In this document: piece after piece, positions 9,502-49,609 of the stretch | How positions within the stretch are numbered: the stretch's first letter is position 1 | Layout of the letters: each line of letters begins with the position of its first letter | Assembly (NCBI GenBank): GCA_964016885.1 | Contig: OZ024740.1 | Coordinates: forward strand, 154,132,001-154,196,000 | Direction: 5' to 3' | DNA length: 64,000 nucleotides | Source: Eledone cirrhosa | Taxonomy: Eukaryota | The notes under the pieces: model-generated | Database searches by the model: none | Told to the model about the DNA's origin: nothing | Seen by the model: only the letters and a program-made list of their open reading frames with translations | Program-made: the position numbers and the translations under genes

Positions 9502-12500
9502 GACAGTCAACGCGATCAGTCGCATATTTTGGCGTGGGAGACTATTTATTAAATTTAAGATGAATACTATCTCCCACAGTAATGCCACAACTACAGCCAG
9601 GTTGAATAACTGGTTATTCTTCTAACTATCGCTTCTGAAGACACTTTTTATTCGAATTCGTAGAGATATCCGACTAAATACATAATTCATTTTACAAGGA
9701 TTTACTATAAACAGCATGGCTGAATACAACATCAACAAAAAAATTAAGGAAGTATCGAAGACAAATAACAAGGAAGGTAATCAAACTTTATTCAGTTGTA
9801 GCTACAGAAGAAACTGAAATTATAAATCTCATTTCTCTTGGGGTTGCGAACTTAATAAGGATTTATTTAATTGTTATAAAATGGCAAAAAACAATCCCTC
9901 CATTGGCTATATGAATAGAATGAAGCTACACTGGGACGAAATGCACCCAGAGCTAAATTATTTCACAGCGAAACAATTATGCCAACAAGCGACGTTTGTT
10001 GAACGTAAAAATAAGATAAATATTATTAATTGTAAGTCCCCCACAACAAACATGGAATCAACAACACGTGCTACAGGTCACCATGCTACTAGACTTCCTA
10101 GCAGCCAGGTCGAACAGCGCCTTGAAATAACTATGCCTGTAAGAAACTTGACACCACCTGTACCATCTAAGTCTACATCGAATGCTGGGGAAAACTATCG
10201 ATAATAATAATAATCGAAGAAATAATAATAATAATCGAATAAATGTGACACCACGTATGCCATCCGAGTCTACCTCGACTGTTGTTGAAAATACTATCGA
10301 TAATGATAATCAAAAGTATAAACAATTGAAAATTTCCCTCAACGAAATCTTCCAGAGAGAAATTAACTCATGTATAAATATCTCTCTTGCTGAACGTGTT
10401 AAAATGACGATGGTGAATAAAAAACCAAATAAAGAAATACTACGTGTTATTCACGAAATAGGGGATGAATATTTACGACGGCTAAAAACCCCAACATTTT
10501 GGCAAATCAACGCCTGTTTATATGCCTTAGCAATGACAGTGAAGCATTATCTTGGTGATAGCAGAGATATTAACAAGAACAAAACACCACCAAAAATACC
10601 ATCATATATAACTAAAATAGAAAAAAGGAGTGCTGACCTTCGAAAAAACATAGGACATGTGACAATGCTCCTTACATGTAAACAAACACAAAAAAACCTC
10701 ACTCCTCGCCTACAAAGAGTGAAAAATAAAATAGAGACGATGTTTGGTAACAGTAGAACCAGAACTCTCCAATATAAGCGAATCACCCTCAAACAAGAAT
10801 TGAGAGCTGTTAGCGAAAATCGCCGATACCTGAAGAAGGTAGATGAGAGAAAAGTACTGAATAAAAGATTCAGACGAAACCAAACATCAGTCTATAGAAA
10901 TATGAAGGGTAACATAATAAGTGTCACTGAGGCCCCATCCCAGAAAGACATAGATTCCTTTTGGAGAAAAATATGGGGTGAAAAGAAAAATTTCAACCAA
11001 GATGTAGTGTGGCTAAGAGAAATCCGAAAGAACTATTGCTCCTACATTACAACAAAAACATACGAAATAAGTGAGGGTACCCTTGAGACTGTGATAGGAA
11101 AACTCCAAGATAAGAAAACACCAGGAAGAGACATGATTGTCGGCTACTGGTACAAAAAACTAATAATCTATCGGAGGTATCTTACTGACCTCTACCAACA
11201 AGTTCTTAAGGGAGATACACTTATACCAGAATGGTTGACATTAGCACAAACGTTACTGGTCGCCAAGAACAAAGACACCCACTTGACAAAAAACTACCGA
11301 CTCATTGCATGCCAGAACCTGATGTATAAGATGTATACAGCCTGCCTGAACCTATTCCTCCAAAATCACGGTGAAAATAATAACATCATCACAGATGAAC
11401 AAGCAGCTGGAAAAAAAGGGGGGGGGGGGGGGTAGGGGATGTGCTGAACAACTCCTAATCAACAAAACTGCGATGTCGGAGGTCGACAACTTAGGAGGAA
11501 TATGGCTACAGTCCTGGCTGGACTACAGGAAAGCTTTCGATTCTGTTTCCCACTCTTGGATGATAGAGGCCCTCCAACTTGCTAAAGTCTCAGACATTAT
11601 TGTCAGAGCCATAGAGAGACTGTCTTCTTCTTGGGCTACTATCCTAAGGTTAAAGACAGAGAGGGAGGACTCTATTTTCACTGATAAAATAAAATATTGC
11701 AGGGGTATATTTCAGGGGGACAGTCTCTCTGTGATATTATTCATCTTGTCATTAAACCCCTTGTCCTTTCTGCTCAAGAAATGTGGGGGATACATCATTG
11801 GCTCACAGGAGGACAGAAATACGAACCTAACCCATAATTTCTTTGTGGACGATCTGAAACTCTATGACAAGAACATGGATGGGATGAAGAAAAAGCTTGA
11901 CCTGGTTACAACGTTCTCAAAGGATATAGGAATGGAGTTTGGCCAAGATAAAAGCTCATACATGACTGTAAGGCGGGGAAAAACAACAACCCAATCTAGC
12001 AACATTGTCATCAATGGTCTAACTGTTTCACCGATATCTGATGAGGACTGCTACAGATACCTGGGGATAGATGAGAACATATCCTATAATGGTATCTGTA
12101 ATAAAGAACGCGTAACCAGGGAATACTACACCCGATTAAGAAAGATCTGGTCATCGTAACTCTCTGCGCAAAACAAAACAGTGGCTCACAATGTGTTTGC
12201 TGTGCCTGTCCTAACACCAACGTTTGGAATACGCAATTGGACGATAGACGAAATCCGAGCAGTTGATGTTGGAACTCGAAAAATACTGAACAACACCGGA
12301 AACTTCCACATCAACAGTGACATAGACCGCCTTTACTTGATACGTAAGCAGGGAGGCAGAGGCCTAACATCAGTCCAGAAAACATTTGAATGTCGCATCA
12401 TATCTCTCCGACAACATCTACGAAGCGTAGGAGCCCGTCTCTCGAGAAAGTCTATCTGCATGAAACAGATAAGATCATGAGAGTTGGGAAGGAACTCCTT

Positions 12501-17351: not shown

Positions 17352-20058
17352 TTTTCTCTTTCTCTTAATTTCGAGTATATTTTTTTGACCGGCCACCTTC
17401 CTGGTGGCAAGGTTGTAAAAGAAAAGAAATTGTCATCCCTTGAATCGCAAGAATGTTTTGCAAATTTTGAAGGTGCCAGCTATCGCAGCCATTTGTAGAC
17501 TATGAATTAGGGAGCTGCGCTTTTTGTCCACAAACCCAAGTTCAGTCATACTTTGGTCCAAGCGGGTTGGTATATAACCCGTAGCACCAATAATGATGGG
17601 TATGAAGCTAAAGGTGTATCTTGGATACTGGATTTGTAAACTCCTCATCAATGGTCCGTAGATGTCCTCCTTCTCCTGTATTTTTCTGACAACGTTTACA
17701 TCAAGTGGGCAGCTGATCTCCACAACAGAACACGTTTTCAATGTGTGGTCCCAAACTACAATATCAGGCCGGTTGTGCTTTAATTTGGTGGCAGTTTTTA
17801 TTTTCAGGTTCCACCAGTATTCCTTAGTGCCATCTGTCTCAATATATTCTTCCTCGTTTGTTGTTAATTTTGTTTTCCGAAGTGCGTTCCAGATGGTTCT
17901 AGCTATCCCATCGTGTCTCATGGGGAGGTAGTAGCGAGATGACATTCTTTCGCAGCTGGCAACAATGTGGCTTACATCCTCGATCTTTGTTTTACATAGC
18001 CTACATTTATTGTCAGCTGCTGGCCCTCCTCTTTTGTGCAGCAGATAATTGGTAGGGAGTTCTTGTTCCTGTATTGCATAGAGATATCCCTCAAGGTGTG
18101 ATGTCATAAACTTGTCGGAACTCCATGCCAGGCTTTTTGAGTGGTTTATCCCCTCTATGGTCTGTGTTTTACGCCTCAAGTATCCATGCACAACTTTTTC
18201 TGTAAATTGGTCAATTTTTTTATCTTGTTTGAACATTGAATAGGATCTTCCGATTTCTCTGGGTGAGAGATTTATATCAGGCTTTATTCCATATCTCTCC
18301 TCCAGATCAGTCGCTATTCTAATGATATTTCTTTTTTCATGGTCATAAACCTGGGCAAGATGGTTGCCAACCTTTTTCCTCTGTTGAAGGTGTTGCTTCA
18401 GTGTCACTATCCGGGTCTCATATGTTGTTAATATTGATTTTAGACCCCGGCCACCTTCCTTGCGTGAGAAGTATAGCCTATCCACATCACCATTGATGTT
18501 AAAGTTCCCAGTAACACTGAGAAGTTTTCGAGTTCTAACATCCATCTCACTTAGTTCTTGCAATGACCAGTTCAGTAGGCCAAATGTTGGCGTTAGAATT
18601 GGCACAGCATAAGTATTGTGGGCAATGTATTTGTTGTATGCTGACAGTTCTGATGACCATATTTTCTTTACTCTTCTGAGGTATTCAGTTCTGGTTCTCT
18701 CCTTATTTATGGGTCCATCATATCTGACATTCTCATCCTGTCCAAGATATCTGTAGTTGTCACCTGACTGCAGAGGTTGTATTGTCAGGCCGTTCATCTC
18801 TAGATTTCTAGAGGAGGGCACAGCTCTTCCACGTTTTACTGCCAAATATGCACACTTGGACTCACCAAATTTCATTTTGATGTCGGTTGAAAATTGTGTA
18901 ATGAGGTCCAATTGTTTCTTGATGTCATTGATATTTGGCCCATACAACTTCAGGTCATCAACAAAGAAAAGATGGGAGATACTTCTGGTCCCACTTCTTT
19001 GTCCACCTTGTTTCCTGAGTAGGTAAGATAGTGGATTCAGTGAGAGAACGAAGAGTAGCACTGACAAGCTATCACCCTGAAAGATGCCCTTCTGGTAATG
19101 TATCTTATCAGTCTTAACCTGCTCCTTCTCACCTCTAAGGATCAAACTGGTGTACCAGTTCTTGGTCAGGCGTTCAACAGCAGCTACCAATGGTTGTGGG
19201 ACTTTAGCTAACTGTAAAACCTTAACAATCCACCCATGAGGTACACTATCAAATGCTTTTTGATAGTCCAGCCACACGACAGTCATGTTTCTGCGATTCT
19301 TTGTTGTTTTTTCCTGAATCATTTTGTTAGTTAGTAGGTGATCTATGCAACCCCACACCTCCCTCTTTCCACCAGCTTGCTCAGGTGTTATGATGTTGTT
19401 GGTAGCACAGTGATCCTGTAAGAACAGGTTAAGGCACCCAGTATATAATTTATACATGATGTTTTGGCAGGCAATTGGGCGGTAATTTTTAGCAAGGGTG
19501 GTTTGGCTATTTTTGGGAATGAGGAGAGTAGAGGCAGTTGATAACCATCTGGGCAGTTCTTGTGTGCCCTTAATGGTTTCTGTAAACAGCCGTATGAGAT
19601 CCTGCCGATAGAAAGTGAAATTCTTCAACCAGTATCCTGTAATGAGGTCTGGGCCTGGCGATTTCCTATTCGACATTTTCTGTAGAGCTATTTCCAGTAT
19701 TGACCCATCTATGTCATATTGTTTTGTCTGGACATGTTGGCAGTAGTCCTGTTCCAGTTCTTTTAGCCAATTAGCTTGTCTGTTGAATCCGTCATCCGTT
19801 TCCCATACAGATCTCCAGTAGCTCTCAACCTGTTCTTTTGAAGGGGTGTCATTTACAGAGATTGAGCTTTTGCCACCGAAGCTGCGATAAACTGATTTAG
19901 GATCTCTGGCAAACAATCTATTTAGTACTTGTCGTTTATGTGCTGTTGACTTATATTTTAGTCTTTCTGTTGTAGCTGTGAGTTGTTGTTTCAACTGGTG
20001 TAATTTGGAGTTCAAAGTTTTAAATTTTGTATCTCCAAATCTTCTCTCTAACTTTTTC
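17352..20058 (-). mobile_element. R4/Dong-clade RLE LINE, 5'-truncated, young
   Basis: Uninterrupted ORF, 3'UTR of about 80 nt with a GCCACC/GGTGGC hairpin, TACA/TATA repeats on both sides. Confidence 0.9.
17433..20015 (-). CDS. RT + CCHC + restriction-like endonuclease (R4/Dong ORF, N-terminally truncated)
   Basis: KSPGPD, NYRPIAC, WLDYQKAFDSVPH, GIFQGDSLS, FFVDDLKLY, YRYLG, CRLC..EDVSHIVASC, RHD, RPDIVVWD..VEISCP..KEDIY; the frame stays open upstream to about 20058. Confidence 0.9.
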   Translation of the reverse strand: MNSKLHQLKQQLTATTERLKYKSTAHKRQVLNRLFARDPKSVYRSFGGKSSISVNDTPSKEQVESYWRSVWETDDGFNRQANWLKELEQDYCQHVQTKQYDIDGSILEIALQKMSNRKSPGPDLITGYWLKNFTFYRQDLIRLFTETIKGTQELPRWLSTASTLLIPKNSQTTLAKNYRPIACQNIMYKLYTGCLNLFLQDHCATNNIITPEQAGGKREVWGCIDHLLTNKMIQEKTTKNRRNMTVVWLDYQKAFDSVPHGWIVKVLQLAKVPQPLVAAVERLTKNWYTSLILRGEKEQVKTDKIHYQKGIFQGDSLSVLLFVLSLNPLSYLLRKQGGQRSGTRSISHLFFVDDLKLYGPNINDIKKQLDLITQFSTDIKMKFGESKCAYLAVKRGRAVPSSRNLEMNGLTIQPLQSGDNYRYLGQDENVRYDGPINKERTRTEYLRRVKKIWSSELSAYNKYIAHNTYAVPILTPTFGLLNWSLQELSEMDVRTRKLLSVTGNFNINGDVDRLYFSRKEGGRGLKSILTTYETRIVTLKQHLQQRKKVGNHLAQVYDHEKRNIIRIATDLEERYGIKPDINLSPREIGRSYSMFKQDKKIDQFTEKVVHGYLRRKTQTIEGINHSKSLAWSSDKFMTSHLEGYLYAIQEQELPTNYLLHKRGGPAADNKCRLCKTKIEDVSHIVASCERMSSRYYLPMRHDGIARTIWNALRKTKLTTNEEEYIETDGTKEYWWNLKIKTATKLKHNRPDIVVWDHTLKTCSVVEISCPLDVNVVRKIQEKEDIYGPLMRSLQIQYPRYTFSFIPIIIGATGYIPTRLDQSMTELGFVDKKRSSLIHSLQMAAIAGTFKICKTFLRFKG

Positions 20059-21487
<1,429 letters not shown>

Positions 21488-28551: not shown

Positions 28552-31325
28552 TTCTTTATTAGCCACAAGGGCACAAAAGAAGGGGACAAATACAAATAGG
28601 GGGTTTACATACAGGTATATGAAAATAAAACTATTAATACAATAACAAATAACAATTGAAATCCCCAATAGGGGGAGGTGTTACACAGGGGTTGTACACA
28701 CCCCGAAAAATGTACAACCCAGGAGTACCAAGAGTGAGTACACCCTTCCTCTCTTCCTCTTTTTCCTCAACCTACAGGCTTATATAAAGAGAAGGCCCAA
28801 CCACTCGGGCCATCTTTGCCACATTCACCCACCCTTTATAAAATTTGCTGGGGTACAGCACCTTTCTCTCCATCCTGATTCTCCTTCCAAAATGATATTT
28901 GAAAAAACGAATCAGTTGCTCGCCGGAGAGAAAGTTGTCTGACCTCAGCCCTTTTAACCTCGTCCACTATATAACCTCTTTCACCATAGCCAAAACACAT
29001 AGGAAAACCGCCTCTCCCTCGTTTTTGAAGGAGGGTGGCGGTTTGATTATGACAATGGACTCGGTGGTAGAGCTCCTCGGTAGCACTGCCAGGCCAGGGA
29101 CTTTTGGAAGTTGTCCATTGGTCCCGGGCGGAAGGTCCTACCGAACAGACTGGCCAGTTCGTCCTCCTCTACGCCTAGAGTTTCTCCGAGTGTGTCGTCG
29201 CACTTGCTGCGGACCAACCCTCTATGGAATGTCGAAGTGGATTCTCCACTGATCGCCGGGTACGTTTGCCAGAGGACTGTGAGCGCCTGAGCACATTCGA
29301 TGTGCCAGTCGCCCATTTTCCTCGGTATTTGCTTGAACCAGGACTGCAGCTCGCTGAGCGAGACGAGTCGTGGGAAGGCTCACCTCACGAACGGGGCCCA
29401 CACCGGTTGTCTGGTGAGGAATACGTGGAGGTGCCGCAGCCTGAGAGCGTGTTTGCGCATCGTCAGCCACGGCAACCACAGCCCTCCGTTTGAATGGTGT
29501 TGACAGCAGATGGATCTTCTCACCAAAGGAGCCCGTTTCATCCAAAGGAATTGGAAGAGCGCGCGCTCCATTTTGGTGACCCTTTTGGCTGGACAAGGCA
29601 CGACGGTCAAGCGGTAGTAGATAACGGACGCTATAAAAGTGTTCGCCACCTCCGCTTGACCTTTCAAGGATAGTTTGCACTCGGCCCACTTCTGGGTGAG
29701 TGCAAACACCTTGGCTGTCACCTAGTTCCAGTTCTTCTCTACCTGGAGGTCCGGACCAAACCAGACCCCGAGCAGCTTCACCGGTCTTTCCGTCCAGCGT
29801 CTGAAACGCCATCGGAAGGCATCGGTTTGCCTCTCCACGTTCCGGGTTGCAAACCGACGGATTTGTCCCGGTTCAGTTTCGCTCCTGTGAACCTTTCGAA
29901 TTCCTCCAGTAAGGTGCCGATCTACCCGATTTGCGAGGTGTTCGACACCATTACTGTAACGTCGTCGGCGTAGGCCGACGCCGCTTTTCGCAGTCCCGGT
30001 TTCAAAGGGATGTCCTGCAATAGCTCCAACTTCCGCAGTAGTGGCTCGAGAGTCAGTACGTACAGAAGGGAGGAGAGAGGGCATCCCTGTCGGATGGATC
30101 GCGTGATATGGAACGGCTCCGAGAAGTAGCCGTTCACCTTGATCGTCTGCATGTATTCTATCCCGGTTGACTATGCAGACGACTAGTTGGTGATCTGAAT
30201 AGGCAACCATGTGCATTTGTGGACAGCTAAACATCTTCTTGTCCTTTTCTCTAATGAAAAACCTATCTAGATACGATCTAGATGTGCCGCTGCGGTTTGC
30301 CCACGTCCACTGCGGTGCAGTTGGGAAATCTAGTCGATATCTATCGGCCAGTTGGAATTGGCCGATTAGATTTTTGAGGCTGTTGCACCTCGCTCTACTG
30401 GGACATGCTCCCACATAGTCCCATCGTGCATCTAGGATACTATTCCAGTCCCCCACTAAAAGTAAGGAGCGAGACGTTCCCAGAAAAGACTCCAGACGCT
30501 TAAATAAGTCTCGCCGCGATTGTGATTGCCTGGTCGGGGCATAAACGACCACCGTCTGAAGGCTCCACCTCAAATACTGTTCACGTCTAGGACTATCCTC
30601 CGGGTCCAAGTGTACTTGCTGTACTTTGCTGTATTTCGAGATACAGGTTTTTCCGAAACATGACAGTCACTTCCCCTCCACCCCCAGCTGACAGAGAGAT
30701 GCGTAGATCTCAAAGTCATTGGAGATGGGGTTAGTTGCTGCCTGATGTGAATCCAGGACTCGGTGATGGCTATCACATCTATACCGTGTGACCTAAGGTC
30801 GTTTAAAAGTTGGCCCTGTTTCCAGGGCATCCCTAGGCCACGCACATTCAGGCTTCCAACTCGTAAGTTAGCCATGTTGGTGGAGTAGGGTTGGCAAAAA
30901 GGACGAAAAGGTGCACTTATCTTTCCGTTTCCTGGAGATCGGGTTGTTCAATCTCCATTTCAGTTCTGGTGGGGGTGTTGAATGAGGTGGGGAAACATTT
31001 CAACAGGACACGGTTTATTGGTTATTGGCAGGGGTTGCCAACGTCCTGTGAACACTTTTCTTTCAATGTCTGATAGGTCTCTATCGAAACCCTTATTAGT
31101 TTTAGGTGTGGTTGAGAGTTTGCTTTTACAAAAGTTTTCCCCTCAGTTTCTACTTTGGGGTCGTTGGAGATGACCTCTATTTGGTTTTTGTTGTTTGTGT
31201 TAATGTATGTGTATTGTTGTTTGTTTTCTTTGTTGTGTTGTTTTGGTTTGTTGTTCATTTTGTAGTTTTCTTTTTATGGTGGGAATTTGTGTTTGGGGTG
31301 GTGTTGGTGTTTGTTTTGCTGGTAC
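28552..31325 (-). mobile_element. L1/Tx1-clade LINE copy A (5'-truncated, internal deletions)
   Basis: ORF1 C-terminus, APE (SLNVRG, VYAP, VGDWN, SYLDRF, SDH), RT (RQGCPLS, YADD), 3' AATAAAGAAA end. Confidence 0.9.
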
Positions 31326-34300: not shown

Positions 34301-36319
34301 TCACTAATTTGTGATCTGAATAGGCAACCATGAACATTTGTGGACAGCTTAACATGTCCCTATCACTAACTCTAACTAGAAATATATCTAGGTACGATCT
34401 AGATGTTCCTCTGTGGTTGGTCTACGTCCACAGTGGCACAGTTGGAAAATCTAGTCGATATCTATCGGCCAGTTGAAATCGGCCGATTAACTGTTTGAGG
34501 CTGTTACACTCCCCTTTATCGGGACATTCTCCCACATAGTCCCAACGTCCATCTAGGATTCCATTCCAATCCCCTACTAATAGCAGGAAGCGGGACGTTC
34601 CCAGAAAAGTCTCTAGACGTTTGAAGAAGTCTGGCCGCGGTGTCCCGGATGCCACCAGCTTGAAGGCTCTACCTTCACTGTCGTCACTGTCTAGGACCAC
34701 CAGTCAACCCTCTGGGTCCAGATGTACCGTCTGTGTTACGAGGTCCATGTGTTTCCGCAGCCAAACGGCAACCCCGGCTGACAGAGAGATGCGTAGATCT
34801 CAAAGTCGTCGAAGATGGGGGCCAGTTGTCGCTCGCTGTGGATCCTGGACTCGTAAATAGTTACTACATCCATACTGTGAGACGTGAGGTCGTTTAAGGG
34901 TTTGCCCTGTTTCCAGGGCATCTCCAGGCCGCGTACATTCACACATCCAACTCTTATACTGGCGATGTTGGTGCTGAAAAGTTAAAAGAAGAGGAAAAGA
35001 AATCACTTACCTCTTTGTCTCCTGGGGACAAGGCTGCACAATTTCCATGGGGGTGTTTGAGCGGTTGTTTGGTGGGTTGTGGTTTCTGGCGGGGGTGGGG
35101 ACGGAGATGTTTGGTGGGAAGGGGGTGTCTGGTGGGATGGGGTGCCTGAGGTGGGGGTGGGGAAACATTTTAACAGGACTCGATTGTAGGGTTTGAAGCA
35201 GGGGTTACCTACGTCGTTAGGAAACTTTTCCTTTAACCGTTTATGTGTGTCCATGGAGATCCTAATTATTTTAAGATTAGGATCCTCCGAAGAGTGTGTA
35301 AAAGTTTTCCCTTCGGTCTCCACCAAAGGGTCTTTATATATGATGTCTGTTAAAGTTTTATTGTTAGTATTTATGTAGGTGTAACATTTTTGTTGTGTTG
35401 TCTTGCTTTTTGTCTGTGGTTCTTGTGTGTGTTTACGTTTTGTAGTAGGTGTAGTAGGAGAGGCTGGGTGGGACTGTGTTTGTCGTTTGTTTTGTTGTCA
35501 CTATTTTTTTTATGTTGTTGTTGTGGTGGTGGTAGTGGTGTTGATTGTTGTGCTGGTGTTGCAGGTGTTGGCAGTAGTGCCTTTTTTTGGCTAGTTAGCC
35601 GAGGGCAGGAAGCTCTCAGGTGACCCCTGCTTAAGCAGTGGTAACATGAGTGCCGCCTACCCTCGACCGAAATGTTTATGTATAGGAGCCCATCCAGCAG
35701 CACACGTTCCGGGATCCTAGCTATTCGTTCTGGTGTCATTTTGGACCGGAATTTCCAGGCTAGTTCCGCTGAACAGGTCGACGGAGGACTTACCTACCGA
35801 TATTATTCAGTCTTTTTCGAGGTTTAAAAATCCACATAGTACCCACCAAATATCAATATTTGGTCTGATACTTTGGATTTTTATTTCTGTGTTTTTTTCC
35901 CCATGTAAGTGGGGGAAAAGGTGAACAGCGGTGACACAATTGGCGACACAGAATATTTCTGTGCCATCAATTGGTATTTCATTAGAATGGATAAACTCCC
36001 GTAGAGTCTACCCTTCTGAATAAAAGCAATGTCTTTTAAGGCACTTTTTAAAGCCAACTCAATTTCGCCTTGTGAAAGTTGAGTCGGTTTTCGGGTTTTG
36101 TTTTAAACTGTCCTGAAAACCACAGTTTTCAATGCAGCTTCTCTTCGCAAATCTGGGGGAGAGTTTATGGAGAATGATCCGTTCTCCCCCAAAAGTTACA
36201 TATTGTCTGGCGTTATTCAAAAGCTCATTTGCATTTGAAATATCTACAGGAGTGTAGCTTACCGTTTTCTTTACGGTTTGCGCAAACGATATTTTGTCGT
36301 TTACTTCCTTGTTGCAGTT
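31355..36319 (-). mobile_element. L1/Tx1-clade LINE copy B (5'-truncated in ORF1)
   Basis: ORF1 CYHCLSRGHLRASC knuckle; APE; RT (KAFDRVDH, YADD); C-terminal ETVAHAFVHC; many frameshifts. Confidence 0.92.
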
Positions 36320-39300: not shown

Positions 39301-40960
39301 TGTCTATGCGTTCTATCAAGGTTGACCACGCAGATCACTAATTTGTGATGTGAATAGCCAACCATGAGCAATTCTGGACAACTAAATACGTCCCTATCCT
39401 TACTCCTAACCAAAAACCTATCTAGGTACGATCTAGATTGACCACTGCGGTTTGCCCAGGTCCAGGTTGGCACAGTTGGAAAATCTAGTCGAAATCTATC
39501 GACCAGGTCGAATCGATTGAGTAACCCTTGAGGCTGCTACACCCCCCTCTATCGGGACATGCCCCTGCATAGTCCCAACGCGCATCTAGGATTCCATTCC
39601 AGTCCCCCACTAAAAGCAGGGAACGCGACGTTCCTAGAAAAGTCTCCAGACGCTGGAAGAAGTCGGCTCTTTCAGCCCCGAAGGGGGCATAAAGACCGAC
39701 CAGTCTGAAAGCCCCGCCTTCACCGCCTCCGACGTCCAGCACCAGTAATCGACCCCCCGGGTCCGAGTGAACAATCTGTACGTCGAGAGCCAGACGTTTA
39801 TCCAGCAGTACGGCAACCCCACCCCCGCCTCCGGGTTGACTGAGAGATGTGTGCATCTCAAAGTCATCGAAGGCGGGAGCCAGCTGTCGCACGCTGCTGA
39901 TCCGACTCTCGCAAACAACCATCACATCTATACTTCGTGACCTGAGGTCATTTAGAAGCTTTGCTTGCTTCCAAGCTGAGCCCAGGCCACGCGCATTCAA
40001 ACAACCAACTTTCAATTGATCTATTTTGGTGTTGAAAGTGAAGAAAGAAAAGCACCTACCTCTCCGGGTTGTATATTTTCCATGGGGTCGGATGTGTTGG
40101 GTGGAGGGATGTTTTGTGGTGGTGTAGGGGTATCCGAGTGTGGTGGGGTTGGGGTATTTGGAGTTGTGTCAGGGAGAGGGGAGGTTATGGGGAAATCTTT
40201 CAAGAGGACGCGATTTAACGGTTTTAAACAGGGGGGGGGGGGGGCTCACGTCCTGTTTAAATTGTTCTTTTAAGGAACGATAAAGGTCCAGAGGGACCTT
40301 TATCATTTTTAAATGGGTGAAGTTCTCTGTTGAGATAAAGTTTGGACCTTCGGTCTGCAGCAAAGGGCTATTGTTTATTAATTTAAACAGTTTTTTTGTT
40401 TTCTTTATTTATATATGTGTATTGTAAAGTCTTTTTTTGTGATGCTGTCAATGTTTCGAAGGGGGGAGGCGCAGATTTATTTTTGTTTGTCGAGGGTGGG
40501 GTGTTTTTGATTGGAGTTGGTGTTTGTGTGTGGGTTATTTGTTGTTGTGGTGTGCTGGGTGTGTGCTTTCGTTTTTTTCTTTTAACTTGTCTGAAGGCTT
40601 CTCCTCATTCTTCTTCTGAAGTTGGGGGAAACTCTTCAGCGCTAGGTGGGAGGGACGTGGTGTCTGGTTGTTTGTTTTTTTTGCCTCAGCTACCCGCTCT
40701 CCTTCAGTTTGTTTAGTGGGCGTGTCATCGTTACCTGTGGTAATGGCTTCCATTACCACTAGCGTAGAGACAATTGCAAGATTTTTAGGATGAAAGATTT
40801 CACCCCAAAAGGGGTGAAATAAATTAACCCTAATGTCCGAAGACCCAGGCAAGGGGGTTAATTAACACAATAATGCAAGAATACAGACAAACACTTACTG
40901 TTAACACGTAATATCTCCAATATTCGCGGAGCCGATGTGAAGCACGTCTATGCCATCCGG
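36378..40960 (-). mobile_element. L1/Tx1-clade LINE copy C (5' end intact, about 1.1-kb ORF1 deletion)
   Basis: 5' ATAGACGTG..GCTCCG motif shared with copy D; APE, RT and CPRC..ETVAH; GATA repeats on both sides. Confidence 0.92.
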
Positions 40961-42619: not shown

Positions 42620-43670
42620 TCTTACTCCAACCCATCCTATAGAGGGCTCTATGTCTACTACACGGCACTCTCCCATTATCCTTTATATCTACAACCACCA
42701 AATTCTCCCCCTCTCTATATATAACATATAAAACTCTCCCAATCCCCCTCTTTATATCAAACATCTCTAAACTCTTCCTCTCCCCATCTATACCACACTC
42801 ACTCTTAAGCGTTCTCTATATATCCATCACAAACTCCCCTCTCTATATCTTTAACGATACTGATTCTACCAAACCCATTCTCTATGTTTAGCAATATTTA
42901 TCTCTCCCAACCCCCTCATTATATCTACAATACAACAATCTCTCTCATTCCCTCTCATTCTACCCATCACTAACAAATTCTCACCCTCTCTATATCTATC
43001 AATGCATGTCTCTATCAATCCTCTCACGCTATCAATACCACCAAACTCTCCCCCTTGTATATCTCCCACACGGAACTCTCTTCTAATCCCCCTTTCTATA
43101 TCAATAAACACCAACCTCTACCCCTCTCTATATCTATTACACGGAACTCTCTCCCAACGCCCCTGTCTATATCAATTCCCACCAAACTCTCTTCCTCTCT
43201 ATATCTACCATACAACACTCTCTCTCATTCCCTCTCACTCAATCCTTCACTATCAAAGTCTTCCCCTCTCTATATCTACTACACGGAACTCTCTGCCAAT
43301 CCCCTTCTCTATATCAATAACCATCAATCTCTCCCCTTCTCTATATCTAATATACAAGGCCCTCTCCCAATCCCACTCACTATATCAATTACCACTAAAC
43401 TATCCCCCTCTATATATCTACTATATAACACTCTCTCATTCCCTCTAACTCTGACCATCACTACCAAACCCTCCCCCTCTCTAAATCTATCAATGCCTAC
43501 CTCTATCTATCCGCTCACTCTATTCATTACCAACAAATTCTCCCACTCTCTATGTCTGCTACACGTAACTCTCTTCCAATACCCCTCTCTATATCAATTT
43601 ACACCAAACTCTCTCCCTCTCTATATCTACAACATAGAACTCTCTTCCAATACCCTTCTCTATATCAATA
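42620..43670. repeat. Degenerate C/T-rich satellite, resuming at 49328-49460
   Basis: Recurrent ACCAAACTCTCCCC.CTCT.TATATCTA.TACACGGAACTCTCT.CCAATCCC..CTCTATATCAAT; interrupted by Tx1 copy D. Confidence 0.8.
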
Positions 43671-43869
43671 CCACTTGATATAGACGTGAATTACTTTGCT
43701 CCGTACTTTTACGGATTATTGTCAAAAAAACTGTGAGTTTATTGCTCAATTTAATAACATTGTTTAGTTTAACCCCTTGCCTGGGCCGTCAGACGTTGAG
43801 TCAACTAATTTACGCCCCTTTCTGGGGCGAAATTTTCATTTTCATCTCAAAACTGTAGACTTGGTGGCA

Positions 43870-45653
43870 ATGGATGCCATTTCCACCTCACACACTGTCG
43901 TGAGTGCCACGCCCACTAAGAGAAGTAGTGGAGGGAAGGTAGGAGTACAAAGCTTGCAGCCTTCCCCCCTCGCATTATCGAAAAACGTTAAAAATATTGA
44001 AACCACGAAACCAAACCCGGTAAATAATACCAGCACCAACAACAAGAACAATGACAATAATACCACAACCAACAACTGCAACAATAGTAATACCAAGGAA
44101 AACATGAACAATATTACCAACAGTGACAGCAACAAAAAAGACAACACCAAAACAACATTCGCACAGACTGTAAAAAAAAACGAACTATACACGCCAATAG
44201 ACATAAAAAATGCTAAACAACTATGACAAGACGCAAAACAATTCGTGACTTTTGGCGAAAACGGTGCTTTTAGCATCAATTCTCCACAGGAATTACGTAG
44301 AGAGGCTGTCCTGAAAACTGTTGTTTTCAGGACAATATCGAACGAAACAAGAAAACCAGCTCAATTATCACAAAATGAAATTGCACTGGTTCTAAAAGAT
44401 GCAATGAAGGACTTAACCTTCATACACAAAGGTAAACTGTTTGGTAGCATTTCGGTGCTAATGAACAACCAGTCAACAGCTCAAAAGTACTCGGTATCAC
44501 CCATTGTGTCCCCCCGCTTCACCTTTTTCCCCACATACAGGGGGAAAAGGACACAAAGAATAAAAATAATGAGTATCACACCAAATATAAATATTTGGTG
44601 GATACTATGTGGAATCTTTAACTTTGACGAAGACAAGATAATTTCAATAGGAAAGTCCTCCGGAGGTGTATTTGGTGGGACCACCGTAGAAGTTCTGGTG
44701 CAAATGGGCCCAGAACGAATAGCGAATATCCCACAACGCGTGCCTCTGGACGGGCTAACTTATATAAACATTTCAGTGGAGGGAAGGTGGCCGTCATGTT
44801 ACCACTGTTTAAGTAGGGGTCACCTGAGGGCTGCCTGTCCTCAATTAACGAGTAAAAAAAAAGCTCTTCTGCCAACCCCGAACACAACAACACAACCACC
44901 ACCACCACCACCACAACAACAACAACCACAATAACACGGAAAAATAAGAACACAAAACACTGTTCCATCCAACCCCTCCCCACCTAAAACAAATACAAAA
45001 GCAACCACAACAAAACCCCAAAATATACCCCTCCCCAACAACACAGAAGAGGACTCCGTATCAACGTCACCCAGTGACGACGAGGGAGAACCCTTTCAAC
45101 AGGTGAAAAGGAAAAAAAAAGGCACCACATTAACACAAATGCCACAAACACACAACCACCAGCACAAACATCACAAATAAAAAAAACCACCCCTCCCCAA
45201 AACATAACACGTACTACAAAACGCAAACACGCACAAGAACAACAAACAAAAACAAACACAACACAACAAAAACTCTATACATACATTAACAAGAACAATA
45301 AAACGTTGATGAAAGCGATAGAAAATAACCCTTCGGTGGAAACCGAAGGGATCACTTTCACCTACGCAGCGAACAAACCGCACCTAATGATGATTAGGGT
45401 CCCAACGGAAACCTATGTAACTTTGAAAAAGAGCCATCCAATGCATGTGGGGACCAACTGCACCAAACCACATAACAGCGTCCTATTGAGATGTTTCCCC
45501 ACCCCCACACCAGACACCCACACCCCACCAAACACCCTAATCCTACCGCACACTGATGTCCTCACCCCACCACAAACCACCACCCCACCAAACAACCCTT
45601 CCAACACCTCCATGGAAATTGTGCAGCCTGGTCCTCATGAGACGAAGAGGTAA
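43870..45653 (+). pseudogene. Tx1 ORF1 (gag-like CCHC knuckle), interrupted by stops at about 44224 and 44932
   Basis: MDAIST start aligns with MEAITT in copy C; CYHCLSRGHLRAAC; ends ...QPGPHETKR*, like copies A and B. Confidence 0.8.
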
Positions 45654-45695
45654 GTAACTTCCTTTCCTCTTCGTTTTTAACTCTTCAGCACCAAC

Positions 45696-48600
45696 ATGGC
45701 CAATATAAGAGTTGGATGTGTGAATGCAAGCGGCTTGGGGATGTCCTGGAAACAGGGCAAACTCTTAAATGACCTCAGGTCGCACAGAGTGGATGTAATG
45801 GTTATTTGCGAATCCAGGATCAGCAGCGAGCGCCAACTGGCCCCCATCTTCGACGACTTTGAGATCTACGCATGTCTCTGTCAGCCGAGGGGTGGGGTGG
45901 GGTTGTCGTTCTGCTGCGAAAATACCTGGGTCTTGCCACACAGAAGGTACACCTCAAACCGGAGGGTCGACTGGTGGTTTTAGACGTCGGCAGTGGTGAA
46001 GGTGGAGCTTTCAGGCTGGTGGCAGCGTATGTCCCATCTCGGACACCGCGACCGGACTTCTTCCGACGCCAGGAGAATTTCCTGGGAACGTCTCTCTCCT
46101 TGCTTTTAGTGGGGGACTGGAATGGTATCCTGGATGCACGTTGGGACTATGTAGGGGCATGTCCCGATAGAGGGGGGTGTAACAGCCTCAAACGATTAAT
46201 CGGCCGATTTGATGTGGCCGATAGATATCGACTAGATTTTCCGACTGTGCCACGGTGGACGTGGACTAATCGCAGCGGAAATCTAGGTCGTACCTAGATA
46301 GGTTCCTAGTTAGAAATAAGGATAGGGACATATTAAGCTGTCCACGAATGTTCATGGTTGACTATTCGGATCACAAGTTGGTGACCGGAGTGGTCAAACT
46401 TGATAGAACTCATAGACAGGGACCCGGTTACTGGAAGCTAAACTTGTCTTTACCGACAAACAAAGCTTACAGTAAGCGGATTAGCACACTAGTTAAGCAG
46501 CGTTTGACGGGGGAAATTGTCAACAACAGGTGGTGGGGCTCTCTCAAGAGAGAAATTAGAATAGAATCGATAGGTTTTAGTCGGGAATTAGCATCAGATA
46601 GGAATAGAACTGAAAGAGAATTAACAAATAGAGTAGAAGAGGCGATTAGGAGTGGCAACGTGGCCGGCGTGCTGGCGTCAAGAACGACCCTAGACGAGTT
46701 CTTTGATGCGAAGCACGAGGGCTGCGTTGTCAGGAGTAAAATACGTGCTCTGGGTAACGAGGGAGCCAAAGCTGTTTGCTGGGCCCGAGTGACAGAGGCA
46801 AAAAGTGGAAACAAGTCCACGATTTGGTCTTTGAAGGACCAGGATGGACGCGTGATCCTTGAACCTGAGCGGATGGGCGCGGCCTTTCAACGGCGCTTTG
46901 CACGACTGTTCGGGAGGGGCGGCGGGCCGGGTGGGGCCATGGATTTCGGTCCATACCTCGACGGTCTGGCGCGGCTCTCGGACGGGGAGGCGAAGTCCTG
47001 CGAGAGGCCGATTTCAGCCGCTGAAATAGGGGAAGCGCTGAGCCAATGCGGCAAACGAAAATCTCCGGGTCTCGATGGTCTACCATACGAACTTTATGTA
47101 GCGATGCCGGGCTTGTTCTCCGGTCTCCTCGAGGCGGTCTACTGCAACTGGCAACAGAACGGGAGAATTCCCAGTTCTGTGACCAAGGGCGTAGTCACGC
47201 TGGTGAGGAAGGATGAGAACAAGGGGGATGACATAGATAACTTCAGGCCCATAACTCTGTTAAACACAGAGTTAAAGATTTTGGCCAAGGTGTTAGCAAA
47301 GAGGTTCGCGCTTGTCGTCGGGAACCTGGTAGGAGAAGCGCAGACATGCGCAACCTGTCCAGGTCCATACACGACAACCTCCACCTCATACGATACATCG
47401 TAGAGAGGGTAGGGAACGAACCCGGTTTTGGTGGGGCCCTGATCAACTTGGATCAATCGAATGCGTTTGATAGGTTTGACCATCGGTACCTGGATGCGGT
47501 GCTCGCGGCGGCAGGCTTCGGGCCCGTTTTCAGGGGCTGGATTGCTGCAATACACAGCAGCAACACCTGCTCGAGGGTCAAGGTGAACGGCTCCCTCTCG
47601 GAGCCGTTCCAAATCACGCGATCCATTCGACAGGGATGCCCTCTCTCCTTCCTCCTGTATGTGCTGGTTCTCGAGCCACTACTGCGGAAGCTGGAGCTGT
47701 TGCAGGGCATCCCCTTGGAACCGGGATTGCGGAAAGCGGTGTCGGCCTACGCCGATGACGTGACAGTAATGGTGTCGTGCGCCTCGGAAATCGGGCAGAT
47801 CGGCACCTTACTGGAGGAAAATGAAAGGTTCACAGGAGCCAAGCTGAACCGGGACAAGTCCGTCGGTTTGCAACTCGGGACGTGGAGGGGCAAAACGATG
47901 CCCTCCGACGGCATCGTCGGACGCTGGACGGAGTGACCGGTGAAGCTGCTCGGGGTCTGGTTCGGACCGGACCTCCAGGTGGAGAAAAACTGGGACGAGG
48001 TAACGGGCAAGGTCTTTGCACTCGCCCAGAAGTGGGCCGAGTGCAAACTATCCCTGAAAGGTCGAGCGGAGGTGGCGAACGCTTCTATAGCGTCCGTCAT
48101 CTACTACCACTTCACCGTCGTGCCTTGCCCAGAGAAAACACTCGCCAAAATGGAGCGCGCGCTCTTCCAAGTTCTTTGGAAGAAGCTGGCTCCTTTGGTG
48201 AGAAGATCCATCTGCTGTCAACACCCTTCGAACGGAGGGCTGGGGATGCCGTGGCTGACGATGCGTAGACACGCATTAAGGCTACGGCACCTCCAGGTAT
48301 TCCTCACCGGTCAGCCGGTGTGGGCCCTGTTTGTAAGGCGAGCCTTTCCGAGACTCGTCTCACTCACCGAGCTGCAATCCTGGGTCAAGCAAAGACCGAG
48401 AAAAGTGGGCGACTGGCACATTGAATGTGCCGAGTCGCTCACGGCCCTCTGGCAAGCGGATCCGGCAATCAGTGGAGACTCAACCTCAACATTCTATAGA
48501 GGGTTGATGCGCAGTAAGTGCGACGACGCTCTCGGAGAGGCTCTGGGCATAGAGGAAGATGAGCTGGCCAGTCTGTTCGGTAGGACGTTTGGCCCGGGAC

Positions 48601-49088
48601 CGATGGACAACTTCCAAAAGTCCCTGGCTTGGCAATGTTACCGAGGAGCTCTACCCGTTCGGGACAAGCTCTGTCCAAGATGCGTGCGTGACGAGGAAAC
48701 CGTCGCACACGCATTCGTACACTGCCCGGGCGTTGCTGACCTGTGGGGCTATGTGGAACGACTACTGTCGCGGGTGGGACCAATCGGCTTGACCACCGAG
48801 AACATTGTCACGATCAAACCGCCTCCCTCTTTCAAAAACGAAGGAGAGGTGGTTTTCCTCTGTGTGATAGCCATGGCGAAAGAAGTTGTATGGTGGACAA
48901 GGTTGAAAGGGCTGAGGTCAGACACCTTTCTCTCCGGCCAACAACTGGTCTTTTTTTTCAAGTACCACTTTAGAAGAAGGATCAGAATGGAGAGAGAGGT
49001 GCTCTACCCCAGCAAGTTTTATGAAAGATGGGTGAAAGTAGCGAGAATGGCCCGAGTGAATGGGCCTTCTCTCTATATCAGCCTGTAG
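45696..49088 (+). pseudogene. Tx1 ORF2: APE endonuclease, RT, C-terminal Cys/His finger (about 3 frameshifts, 1 stop)
   Basis: CVNASG, VGDWN, SDHK, YWKLN, KSPGLDGL, NFRPITLLN, RQGCPLS, YADD, KLLGVWF, GGLG, CPRC...ETVAHAFVHC. Confidence 0.9.
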
Positions 49089-49609
49089 GTGAGAGAGGAG
49101 AAGAATGAGAAGAGGAAGGAAGCACCCGCTGTTTGTGCTCCTGAAGAGGAGGGTTGCACATTTTTTCGGGGGTGTGTGCGACCCATGTCAACGCCCCTCC
49201 CTATTGAGGACATCGATTGTTAAATTTAATTTGTTATATGTTTTTTACACGTCTTTTTAAATGTATGTAAACTCCCCCCTTTGTATTTGTCCCAATCTTT
49301 GATGCCCTGGTGGCAAATAAATAGAAATATATATCAATTAACACCAAACTCTCCCCTTCACTATATCTATCAATACCTACCTCTATCTATCCCCTCACTC
49401 TATTCATTACCACCAAACTCTCCCCTCTCTATATCTATCTCTCCCATCTACCTCTACATAACATGTACATACATTGTTGCGGATATACAAATAAATGTGT
49501 GTTCTGATATATATTTGGGATAAAAAAATATTTATTAGGGGGGTCTATGGCCCACCTGGCCGCCAGTTCCACCTTCCCTTATATATAAGGAACATTAAAT
49601 TTAAAAAAA

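What the first reader, a model, noticed from the sequence alone, without database searches (positions are those of the whole stretch)
45640..45700. Micro-intron-like signal between Tx1 ORF1 and ORF2 whose removal deletes the ORF1 stop and fuses the ORFs in frame
Seen: copy D reads AAG AG|GTAAGT aacttcctttcctcttcgtttttaac tcttCAG|C ACC AAC ATG (45650-45688, 39 nt), i.e. a consensus donor, pyrimidine tract, TTAAC branch-like motif and CAG. The ORF1 stop (TAA) lies inside the donor, and splicing yields K-S-T-N-M-A in the ORF2 frame. Copy B has the same sites around a diverged 37-nt spacer (35010-34974), keeps the same fusion frame, and has ATC in place of the ORF2 ATG. Copy C keeps a donor (GTAGGT, 40059) but has CAA at the acceptor; copy A has neither site (ATAAGT). 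Established: mammalian L1 ORF2 is translated from unspliced bicistronic RNA by termination-reinitiation. Inference: this family may make ORF2 or an ORF1-ORF2 fusion by splicing. Caveats: 37-39 nt is very short for an animal intron, and AGG-TAA-GT may partly reflect Arg-stop.
Basis: partly seen in the sequence, partly recalled or inferred. Interest (0 to 1): 0.78.

Follow-up and report, generated by a model that had tools for sequence, protein, structure and literature searches.

The report
Splice donor at retrotransposon ORF1 stop
The 39-base "micro-intron" is probably never removed, but the splice-donor motif that opens it is kept in every subfamily of this LINE retrotransposon examined, and it likely splices to distant sites, which appears to have joined the first gene of one subfamily to the second gene of another in hybrid elements that then spread.

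Summary
The GT…AG at 45650-45688 is real, but micro-intron fusion is not supported.

Against it: 8 of 12 lineages lack an AG in the spacer. A 227-copy sister subfamily has the AG but would splice out of frame. No genomic copy lacks the spacer exactly, against 462 intact copies. The shortest host introns measured were 89-90 nt.

What is conserved is the donor: G|GTRRGT lies over or just before the ORF1 stop in 12 of 12 lineages (ORF2 only 64-68% identical between clades), in all three reading phases and with all three stop codons.

The donor appears to be used. 21 genomic copies are hybrids whose B-type ORF1 ends exactly at it and joins, out of register, E-type sequence that follows a CAG; four carry a second such joint. 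Two control AG positions gave no inter-element joint.

Best reading: a selected U1 site that splices to distant acceptors (candidate: the ORF2 stop, TAG|G) to make ORF1-only RNA, as in plant Ty1/Copia, while ORF2 starts at its own ATG on unspliced RNA. Splicing into a downstream tandem element swaps ORF1 between families. No RNA data were available.

The parts
43870..45653 (+). ORF1 of copy D (broken by stops and frameshifts in this copy), with a CCHC zinc knuckle and a Pro/Thr-rich tail; ends ETKR-stop
   Evidence: no Pfam match; knuckle read by eye; start position approximate
45647..45655 (+). 5' splice site (GAG|GTAAGT) overlapping the ORF1 stop; the conserved feature
   Evidence: G-1, G+1, T+2, G+5, T+6 invariant in 12/12 lineages; hybrid joints at this boundary
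45650..45688 (+). 39-nt GT…AG spacer, the proposed micro-intron; probably not excised
45689..45698 (+). ORF2 start context CACCAAC ATG
   Evidence: A-3 and A-2 in 12/12 lineages
45696..49088 (+). ORF2 (APE endonuclease, RT, zf-RVT), broken in this copy
   Evidence: RVT_1; zf-RVT below cut-off; Exo_endo_phos on L028
49066..49090 (+). candidate distant acceptor: pyrimidine tract plus the ORF2 stop TAG|GT (inferred)
   Evidence: YAG in 9/11 lineages, ranked 1 of 68 conserved YAG columns by pyrimidine content
49316..49333 (+). AATAAA and 3' end of the element
45620..45626 (+). TGTGCAG: position homologous to the E-subfamily CAG after which hybrid R1 is joined
34974..35010 (-). copy B spacer, 37 nt GT…AG; GTGAGT donor in most B copies
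35085..35090 (-). GCCAG|A in B-type ORF1: position homologous to the CAG after which hybrid R2 is joined
40022..40059 (-). copy C junction: phase-0 donor GTAGGT, no AG before the start position, ORF2 start ATA overlapping the ORF1 stop TAG
30875..30920 (-). copy A junction: donor mutated in this copy (GTAAGT in the subfamily), spacer without AG

Best explanation
The conserved feature is a splice-donor motif over the ORF1 stop of a Tx1/L1-type LINE lineage, which likely binds U1 and splices to distant acceptors rather than across the 34-39-nt spacer. Shown in sequence: the donor is kept in all 12 lineages, the near acceptor and the fusion frame are not, and 21 hybrid copies are joined exactly at the donor to sequence that follows a CAG in another subfamily. 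Inferred: (1) unspliced RNA is the transposition template and makes ORF2p from its own start by reinitiation; (2) part of the RNA is spliced from this donor to remove ORF2, best candidate acceptor the ORF2 stop TAG|G, giving an ORF1-only mRNA, while U1 binding helps keep the rest full-length, as in plant Ty1/Copia; (3) in head-to-tail arrays within one microsatellite, read-through RNA sometimes splices from the donor into a CAG near the ORF1 end of the next element. The product keeps a promoter, one ORF1 and an intact ORF2, so it retrotransposes and founds a hybrid subfamily. Step 3 is better supported than step 2.
For: Donor: 20 of 21 junctions in 1.26 Mb chosen by position, not by motif (includes the window's four). 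Invariant G|GT..GT in 12/12 lineages whose ORF2 is 64-68% identical between clades F and A-E; phases 2 (A, A2, B, D, E, F, F2, H), 1 (B2, G) and 0 (C, probably G2). Use: of 28 'exon end + not GT' hits, 18 join E-type sequence that follows GTGCAG, 4 join sequence that follows GCCAG, and 6 are small indels. 21 distinct hybrid loci on C1-C4, C6 and C28. Their ORF1 part groups with B-type copies and their ORF2 with E; ORF2 of one R1 and one R2 copy is 97% and 95% identical to E, 79-81% to B/B2/D. Both joints are out of register (23 and 76 nt) although 15 or more identical bases lie next to them. From the acceptor side, 15 of 17 and 2 of 3 hits come from the donor boundary. Two control AG positions gave 0 hits and one 12-nt deletion. 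Candidate acceptor ranked 1 of 68; joining would end ORF1 within 0-3 codons in D, E, G, C, G2. Tandem same-strand copies A, B, C lie in the window. Analogue: EVD/Copia 5' splice site (PMC5580714, passages).
Against: Only two independent joints carry the case for use, and both share the 2-nt AG microhomology, so template switching is not excluded; I looked at this boundary by design. Non-splice deletions also end here: one F copy at an ACG microhomology without AG (L316), and one A copy ending 1 nt off a TAG|G (L291). Donors of E, G and C gave no inter-element joint. No ORF1-only spliced genomic copy was found for D/E or A/B. F and F2 end ORF2 in TAA, not TAG. Joining would add 9-32 codons in A, A2, B, B2. 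The candidate acceptor leads the next site by only 13.4 versus 13.3 pyrimidines and was picked after the fact. Nothing was tested at the RNA level.
Confidence: 0.5

Rival explanations
1. The site is a selected U1-binding site whose job is not splicing (it suppresses premature 3' end formation or aids RNA stability or export). Splicing from it is a rare accident, which made the hybrids.
For: Donor kept with no acceptor in 8/12 spacers. No internally spliced genomic copies. A purine/pyrimidine hairpin that would partly mask the donor is predicted in most lineages. U1 suppression of premature termination is shown for EVD (PMC5580714).
Against: AATAAA/ATTAAA sites are mostly upstream in ORF1 and scarce in ORF2. 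A conserved YAG|G with the best pyrimidine tract sits at the ORF2 stop. Hairpin covariation is not significant (p=0.21; 0.43 on 7 lineages).
Confidence: 0.26
2. The motif is a translation or DNA-level signal (Arg codon, stop, purine context, short hairpin, or a protein site) that only resembles a donor. The hybrids arose by reverse-transcriptase switching at AG microhomology.
For: AGG is the commonest Arg codon in ORF1 (26/62). Microhomology deletions do occur at this boundary (L316). Human L1 keeps its SD97 donor because it lies in a RUNX3 site (PMC5860796 Discussion). C has an overlapping ATA/TAG start-stop, like coupled termination-reinitiation (PMC5972666 passages).
Against: The motif stays when the stop moves out of it (C, G, B2). 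All three stop variants keep G+5 and T+6. Two out-of-register joints both land on the exact exon boundary and after CAG; no inter-element joint at two control AGs.
Confidence: 0.17
3. One reading: a 34-39-nt micro-intron is spliced, deleting the ORF1 stop and making an ORF1-ORF2 fusion, at least in B and D.
For: GT…AG with a pyrimidine tract in 462 D/B copies; frame kept between 39-nt D and 37-nt B. A second lineage (G2, 2 copies seen) has a TAG 30 nt (26 nt in the other copy) after the donor, in frame in the 30-nt copy by the local reading, though that TAG is then its ORF1 stop.
Against: No AG in 8/12 lineages. B2 (227 copies, 34 nt) is out of frame. 0 exact-loss copies (95% bound 0.65%) although such RNA would carry RT in cis; human spliced L1 copies are about 1.8% of full-length insertions. 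E's spacer is 28 nt. The shortest host myosin introns are 89 and 90 nt among 22 exon gaps.
Confidence: 0.07

Closest known systems
Plant Ty1/Copia (EVD) shGAG system (PMC5580714, passages read)
   Same: A conserved 5' splice site near the end of the structural-protein region; U1 both splices to give a structural-protein-only RNA and protects full-length RNA.
   Different: That is an LTR element with one gag-pol ORF, where splicing creates the stop and is coupled to premature termination. Here it is a two-ORF LINE, the stop is already in or near the donor, and the spliced RNA is inferred, not seen.
Human L1 SpIREs (PMC5860796, passages and Discussion part 1 read)
   Same: A conserved donor in a LINE; spliced RNA can be retrotransposed and so leaves genomic fossils.
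   Different: The SpIRE donor is in the 5'UTR, splicing is within one element, and products are described as dead ends. Here the donor is at the ORF1 stop and the products are inter-family hybrids that reached at least 21 loci.
mRNA-exon/L1 chimeras made by cis- or trans-splicing (PMC13174262, abstract and passages read)
   Same: The 5' part ends at a splice donor, the 3' part starts after an acceptor in a LINE, and the product retrotransposes.
   Different: There the 5' part is a host exon; here it is the ORF1 region of another LINE subfamily, giving an ORF1 swap.
L1 and SART1 termination-reinitiation (PMC5972666, passages read)
   Same: ORF2 has its own start 28-46 nt after the donor; C has an overlapping, non-AUG start.
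   Different: No TURBS-like or downstream structure was looked for here; no conserved donor is mentioned for those elements in the passages read.
Ogre/Tat LTR elements with a stop-removing intron (recalled; one search gave a search listing only)
   Different: Those introns are recalled as far longer; here the near acceptor and the frame are not conserved.

Membership tests
L1/Tx1 clade LINE | ORF2 with N-terminal APE endonuclease followed by RT | tested here: met
   PF03372 on L028 ORF2; PF00078 on the window's ORF2; homologues with PF03372+PF00078, some also PF13966
L1/Tx1 clade LINE | separate ORF1 with a CCHC knuckle (Tx1-like type I) | tested here: met
   C-x2-C-x4-H-x4-C read in the ORF1 translation; no Pfam hit; type described in PMC5203782 passages
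Tx1 subgroup | RT phylogeny within Tx1 against named references | not tested
Tx1 subgroup | target preference for a repeat (recalled trait) | tested here: met
   3' ends run into (TCTA)n in most A-E copies and (ATT)n in F and G copies; seen by eye, not counted against a control
Spliceosomal micro-intron fusing ORF1 and ORF2 | donor and acceptor both conserved | tested here: not met
   AG in 4 of 12 lineage spacers
Spliceosomal micro-intron fusing ORF1 and ORF2 | fusion frame conserved where both sites exist | tested here: not met
   in frame in D, B and probably G2; out of frame in B2, 227 copies
Spliceosomal micro-intron fusing ORF1 and ORF2 | spliced form exists as a retrocopy | tested here: not met
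   0 exact-loss copies against 462 + 227 intact
Spliceosomal micro-intron fusing ORF1 and ORF2 | junction reads in RNA | not testable with these tools
   no RNA run could be laid
Copia-like U1-controlled subgenomic RNA (works-like) | conserved 5' splice site at the end of the structural ORF | tested here: met
   12/12 lineages
Copia-like U1-controlled subgenomic RNA (works-like) | conserved partner acceptor | tested here: inconclusive
   ORF2-stop YAG in 9/11 lineages, rank 1/68 by a thin margin; no spliced retrocopy
Copia-like U1-controlled subgenomic RNA (works-like) | short spliced mRNA, U1-dependent full-length RNA | not testable with these tools
   needs RNA data or a reporter
Splice-derived retrotransposed chimera | 5' part ends exactly at a donor and 3' part follows an AG in its parent | tested here: met
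   both joints; 2-nt AG microhomology leaves template switching open

The most novel reading that the evidence does not exclude
This LINE lineage sets its ORF1:ORF2 ratio by splicing, with a U1 site fixed on the ORF1 stop and the whole of ORF2 as an optional intron, converging on the Ty1/Copia strategy. Because it inserts head to tail in one microsatellite, the same donor splices into neighbouring elements and swaps ORF1 between families, so the spliceosome acts as a LINE recombinase whose products stay mobile.
Probability: 0.35. Interest if true: 0.75.

Novelty: new variant of a known kind. Interest (0 to 1): 0.52.

Why it matters
How LINEs make much ORF1p and little ORF2p from one RNA, and how LINE families exchange ORF1 modules, are both poorly resolved outside a few model elements (my own knowledge). 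A donor fixed on the ORF1 stop gives a one-site, testable handle on the first question. Hybrid subfamilies joined at that donor give a concrete route for the second, and differ from human spliced L1 copies, which are described as dead ends. The micro-intron claim itself, the most surprising reading, is the part that fails.

Tried and rejected
RNA: no RNA holder listed. The three runs listed (one sample, kind unknown, DNA-like by size and depth, my inference) were laid twice. One search lists no 45649-45689 joint. One contig in one run showed 45649-45731 labelled GT..AG, but that AG is private to the window copy (45729 reads C in most contigs), so I rejected it. One search showed only 15 joints with 378 hidden and was uninformative.

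Read-through of the stop: D's ORFs share a frame, but B's (37 nt) do not, and about half of the D copies have a second in-frame TAA; rejected.

Splicing from a 5'UTR donor into the B/D acceptor: 2 hits, both plain deletions. Exon end followed by G and non-donor sequence: 7 hits, 6 small changes and 1 unrelated. Hairpin covariation: not significant.

Distant relatives: 9 of 17 metagenome loci had the ORF2 start (25-34% identity); none shows a donor at the ORF1 stop. Viral contigs gave nothing.

The H row in the ORF2 tree misaligned and was ignored. Truncated copies gave long junk branches. One search used phase 1 for G2, which is probably phase 0; the stop then comes after 2 codons instead of 3. 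The host taxon was not determined; the octopus search was a guess and gave nothing on this junction. Earlier-findings look-ups returned nothing.
Full report
Setting. The window lies in a 3.0-Gb genome and holds several copies of a two-ORF LINE (self-alignment). ORF2 has an APE endonuclease and RT; ORF1 has a CCHC knuckle (by eye). Copies end in AATAAA and run into (TCTA)n or (ATT)n. Copies A, B and C lie head to tail on the minus strand. The host taxon was not determined.

Observation. Two details are copy-specific: B's ATC and A's ATAAGT. In the 30 best-matching copies per subfamily (of 40 scored among 1346-1931 candidates), D has donor and AG in 30/30, B in 28/30 and 27/30, A in 19/30 and 0/30, C in 29/30 and 0/30.

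Wider sample. In 1.26 Mb taken by position (864 kb around and including the window, 400 kb on C2 and C3) there were 23 ORF2 starts, 21 with the ORF1 end in place. Of these, 20 have G|GTRRGT and 5 have an AG in the spacer. I took one copy for each of 12 lineages (D, B, B2, A, A2, E, C, H, F, F2, G, G2). G-1, G+1, T+2, G+5 and T+6 are invariant in 12/12, and so are A-3 and A-2 before the ORF2 start. ORF2 identity falls to 64-68% between F and A-E, spacers run from 28 to 49 nt, and the ORF1 tails of F and D look unrelated by eye. The donor is in phase 2 in eight lineages, phase 1 in B2 and G, and phase 0 in C and probably G2. In phase 2 the stop inside it is TAA, TGA or TAG. The lineages are related, so these are not 12 independent events, but an Arg-stop reading cannot explain the phase-0 and phase-1 cases.

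Micro-intron test. (i) Eight of 12 lineages have no AG between donor and ORF2 start. (ii) B2 has the CAG at 34 nt in 227 copies, but its ORF1 ends ETKGE-stop with the donor in phase 1 (one copy translated), so splicing would leave the ORF2 frame. (iii) 462 D/B copies carry the intact spacer. A gap pattern of 0-30 nt gave 4 hits: three internal deletions that keep GT and AG, and one unrelated. An acceptor-side pattern that also covers B2 gave 2 plain deletions. The 95% upper bound is 0.65%, against about 1.8% for one class of human spliced L1 copies (PMC5860796 Discussion). (iv) Host myosin genes: 42 of the 72 matches were entered, giving 22 adjacent gaps; the shortest were about 89 and 93 nt, and two introns were measured exactly at 89 and 90 nt. 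In the model's favour: the frame is kept between D (39 nt) and B (37 nt), and G2 (two copies) has a TAG 30 and 26 nt after the donor, in frame in the 30-nt copy.

Is the donor used? A pattern for the D/B exon end followed by anything but GT gave 28 hits. Eighteen continue into E-subfamily sequence that in E follows GTGCAG; four continue into sequence that in the first hybrid follows GCCAG; six are small indels. With these make 21 distinct loci: 11 with a B2-like ORF1 (R1), 4 with both joints (R2), 3 with another B-type ORF1 (R3, possibly derived from R2 or by homologous exchange), and 3 truncated. Their ORF1 part groups with B-type copies and their ORF2 with E; ORF2 of one R1 and one R2 copy is 97% and 95% identical to E, bootstrap 100. 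Both joints are out of register, by 23 and 76 nt, beside longer perfect homology. In R2 the two shifts restore E's own stop at its donor. From the acceptor side, 15 of 17 and 2 of 3 hits come from the donor boundary; the others are 2 tandem duplications and 1 other subfamily.

Controls and limits. Two AG positions just upstream gave 0 hits and one 12-nt deletion in subfamily H. Other donors: A gave 11 hits, 10 small indels and one long deletion ending 1 nt off a TAG|G; F gave 8 hits, 7 small and one long deletion at an ACG microhomology without AG; E 2 small; G 4 small; C 0. So the case rests on two independent inter-element joints, each with only AG shared, found at a position I chose. I put splicing as their origin at about 70%.

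What is the donor for? No partner is proven. The ORF2 stop is TAG|G behind a pyrimidine tract in 9 of 11 lineages and ranks first of 68 conserved YAG columns, by a thin margin. Joining would stop ORF1 after 0-3 codons in D, E, G, C and G2 and after 9-32 codons in A, A2, B and B2; F and F2 have TAA. No such spliced genomic copy was found. That is weaker evidence than for the micro-intron, because this RNA would lack ORF2 in cis. A hairpin pairing the ORF1 end with the tract is predicted in most lineages (z = -2.45 for D, not significant for B or C), without covariation. The closest working model is EVD/Copia, where a conserved 5' splice site both yields the gag-only RNA and lets U1 block premature termination (PMC5580714, passages). 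I commit to that kind of mechanism at 0.5, with a non-splicing U1 role at 0.26, a look-alike signal at 0.17 and the micro-intron at 0.07.

Literature. Seen: PMC13174262 (abstract, outline, passages), PMC5860796 (passages, Discussion part 1), PMC5972666 (passages), PMC5580714 (passages), PMC5203782 (passages). No supplements were opened. The listings of searches showed no title or abstract start on a LINE with a conserved donor at the ORF1 stop, or on ORF1 exchange between LINE families by splicing. The library lacks most subscription papers and repeat-database reports, so this is weak evidence of novelty. Ogre is recalled.

Verdict. The fusion micro-intron is not supported. The conserved and apparently functional donor, with splice-like ORF1 swaps, is a new variant of known retroelement splicing. 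Interest 0.52.

Noticed in passing
window 40021-40024 (-), L095-L124: Subfamily C has ATA instead of ATG at the ORF2 start in all 30 copies shown, overlapping the ORF1 stop TAG, so it spread with a non-AUG coupled start.
   Followed up: partly
window about 49048-49068 (+): A perfect short stem-loop (GGCCC, 8-nt loop, GGGCC) just before the ORF2 stop is kept, with variation, from D to F and G; possibly the 3' tail signal for ORF2p.
   Followed up: no
L129 (9488, -) and L155 (7278, -): Two 5'-truncated copies start at, or about 10 codons after, the ORF2 ATG, directly after (TCTA)n.
   Followed up: no
window 42650-43680 and 49330 onward: Copy D is inserted in a degenerate tandem repeat of about 70 nt built on TCTA-like units.
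   Followed up: no
L140, L153, L161 and other F/G copies: F and G subfamilies end in (ATT)n while A-E mostly end in (TCTA)n, suggesting a change of target within the lineage.
   Followed up: partly
window 10152-12159 (+) and 17433-20505 (-): Other long open frames (427, 269 and 874 aa) that do not align to this LINE; not identified.
   Followed up: no
B, B2, D and G junctions, e.g. window 45650-45657: The donor is followed by a second stop in another frame (two TAA or two TGA); B2 and G use the second one.
   Followed up: partly
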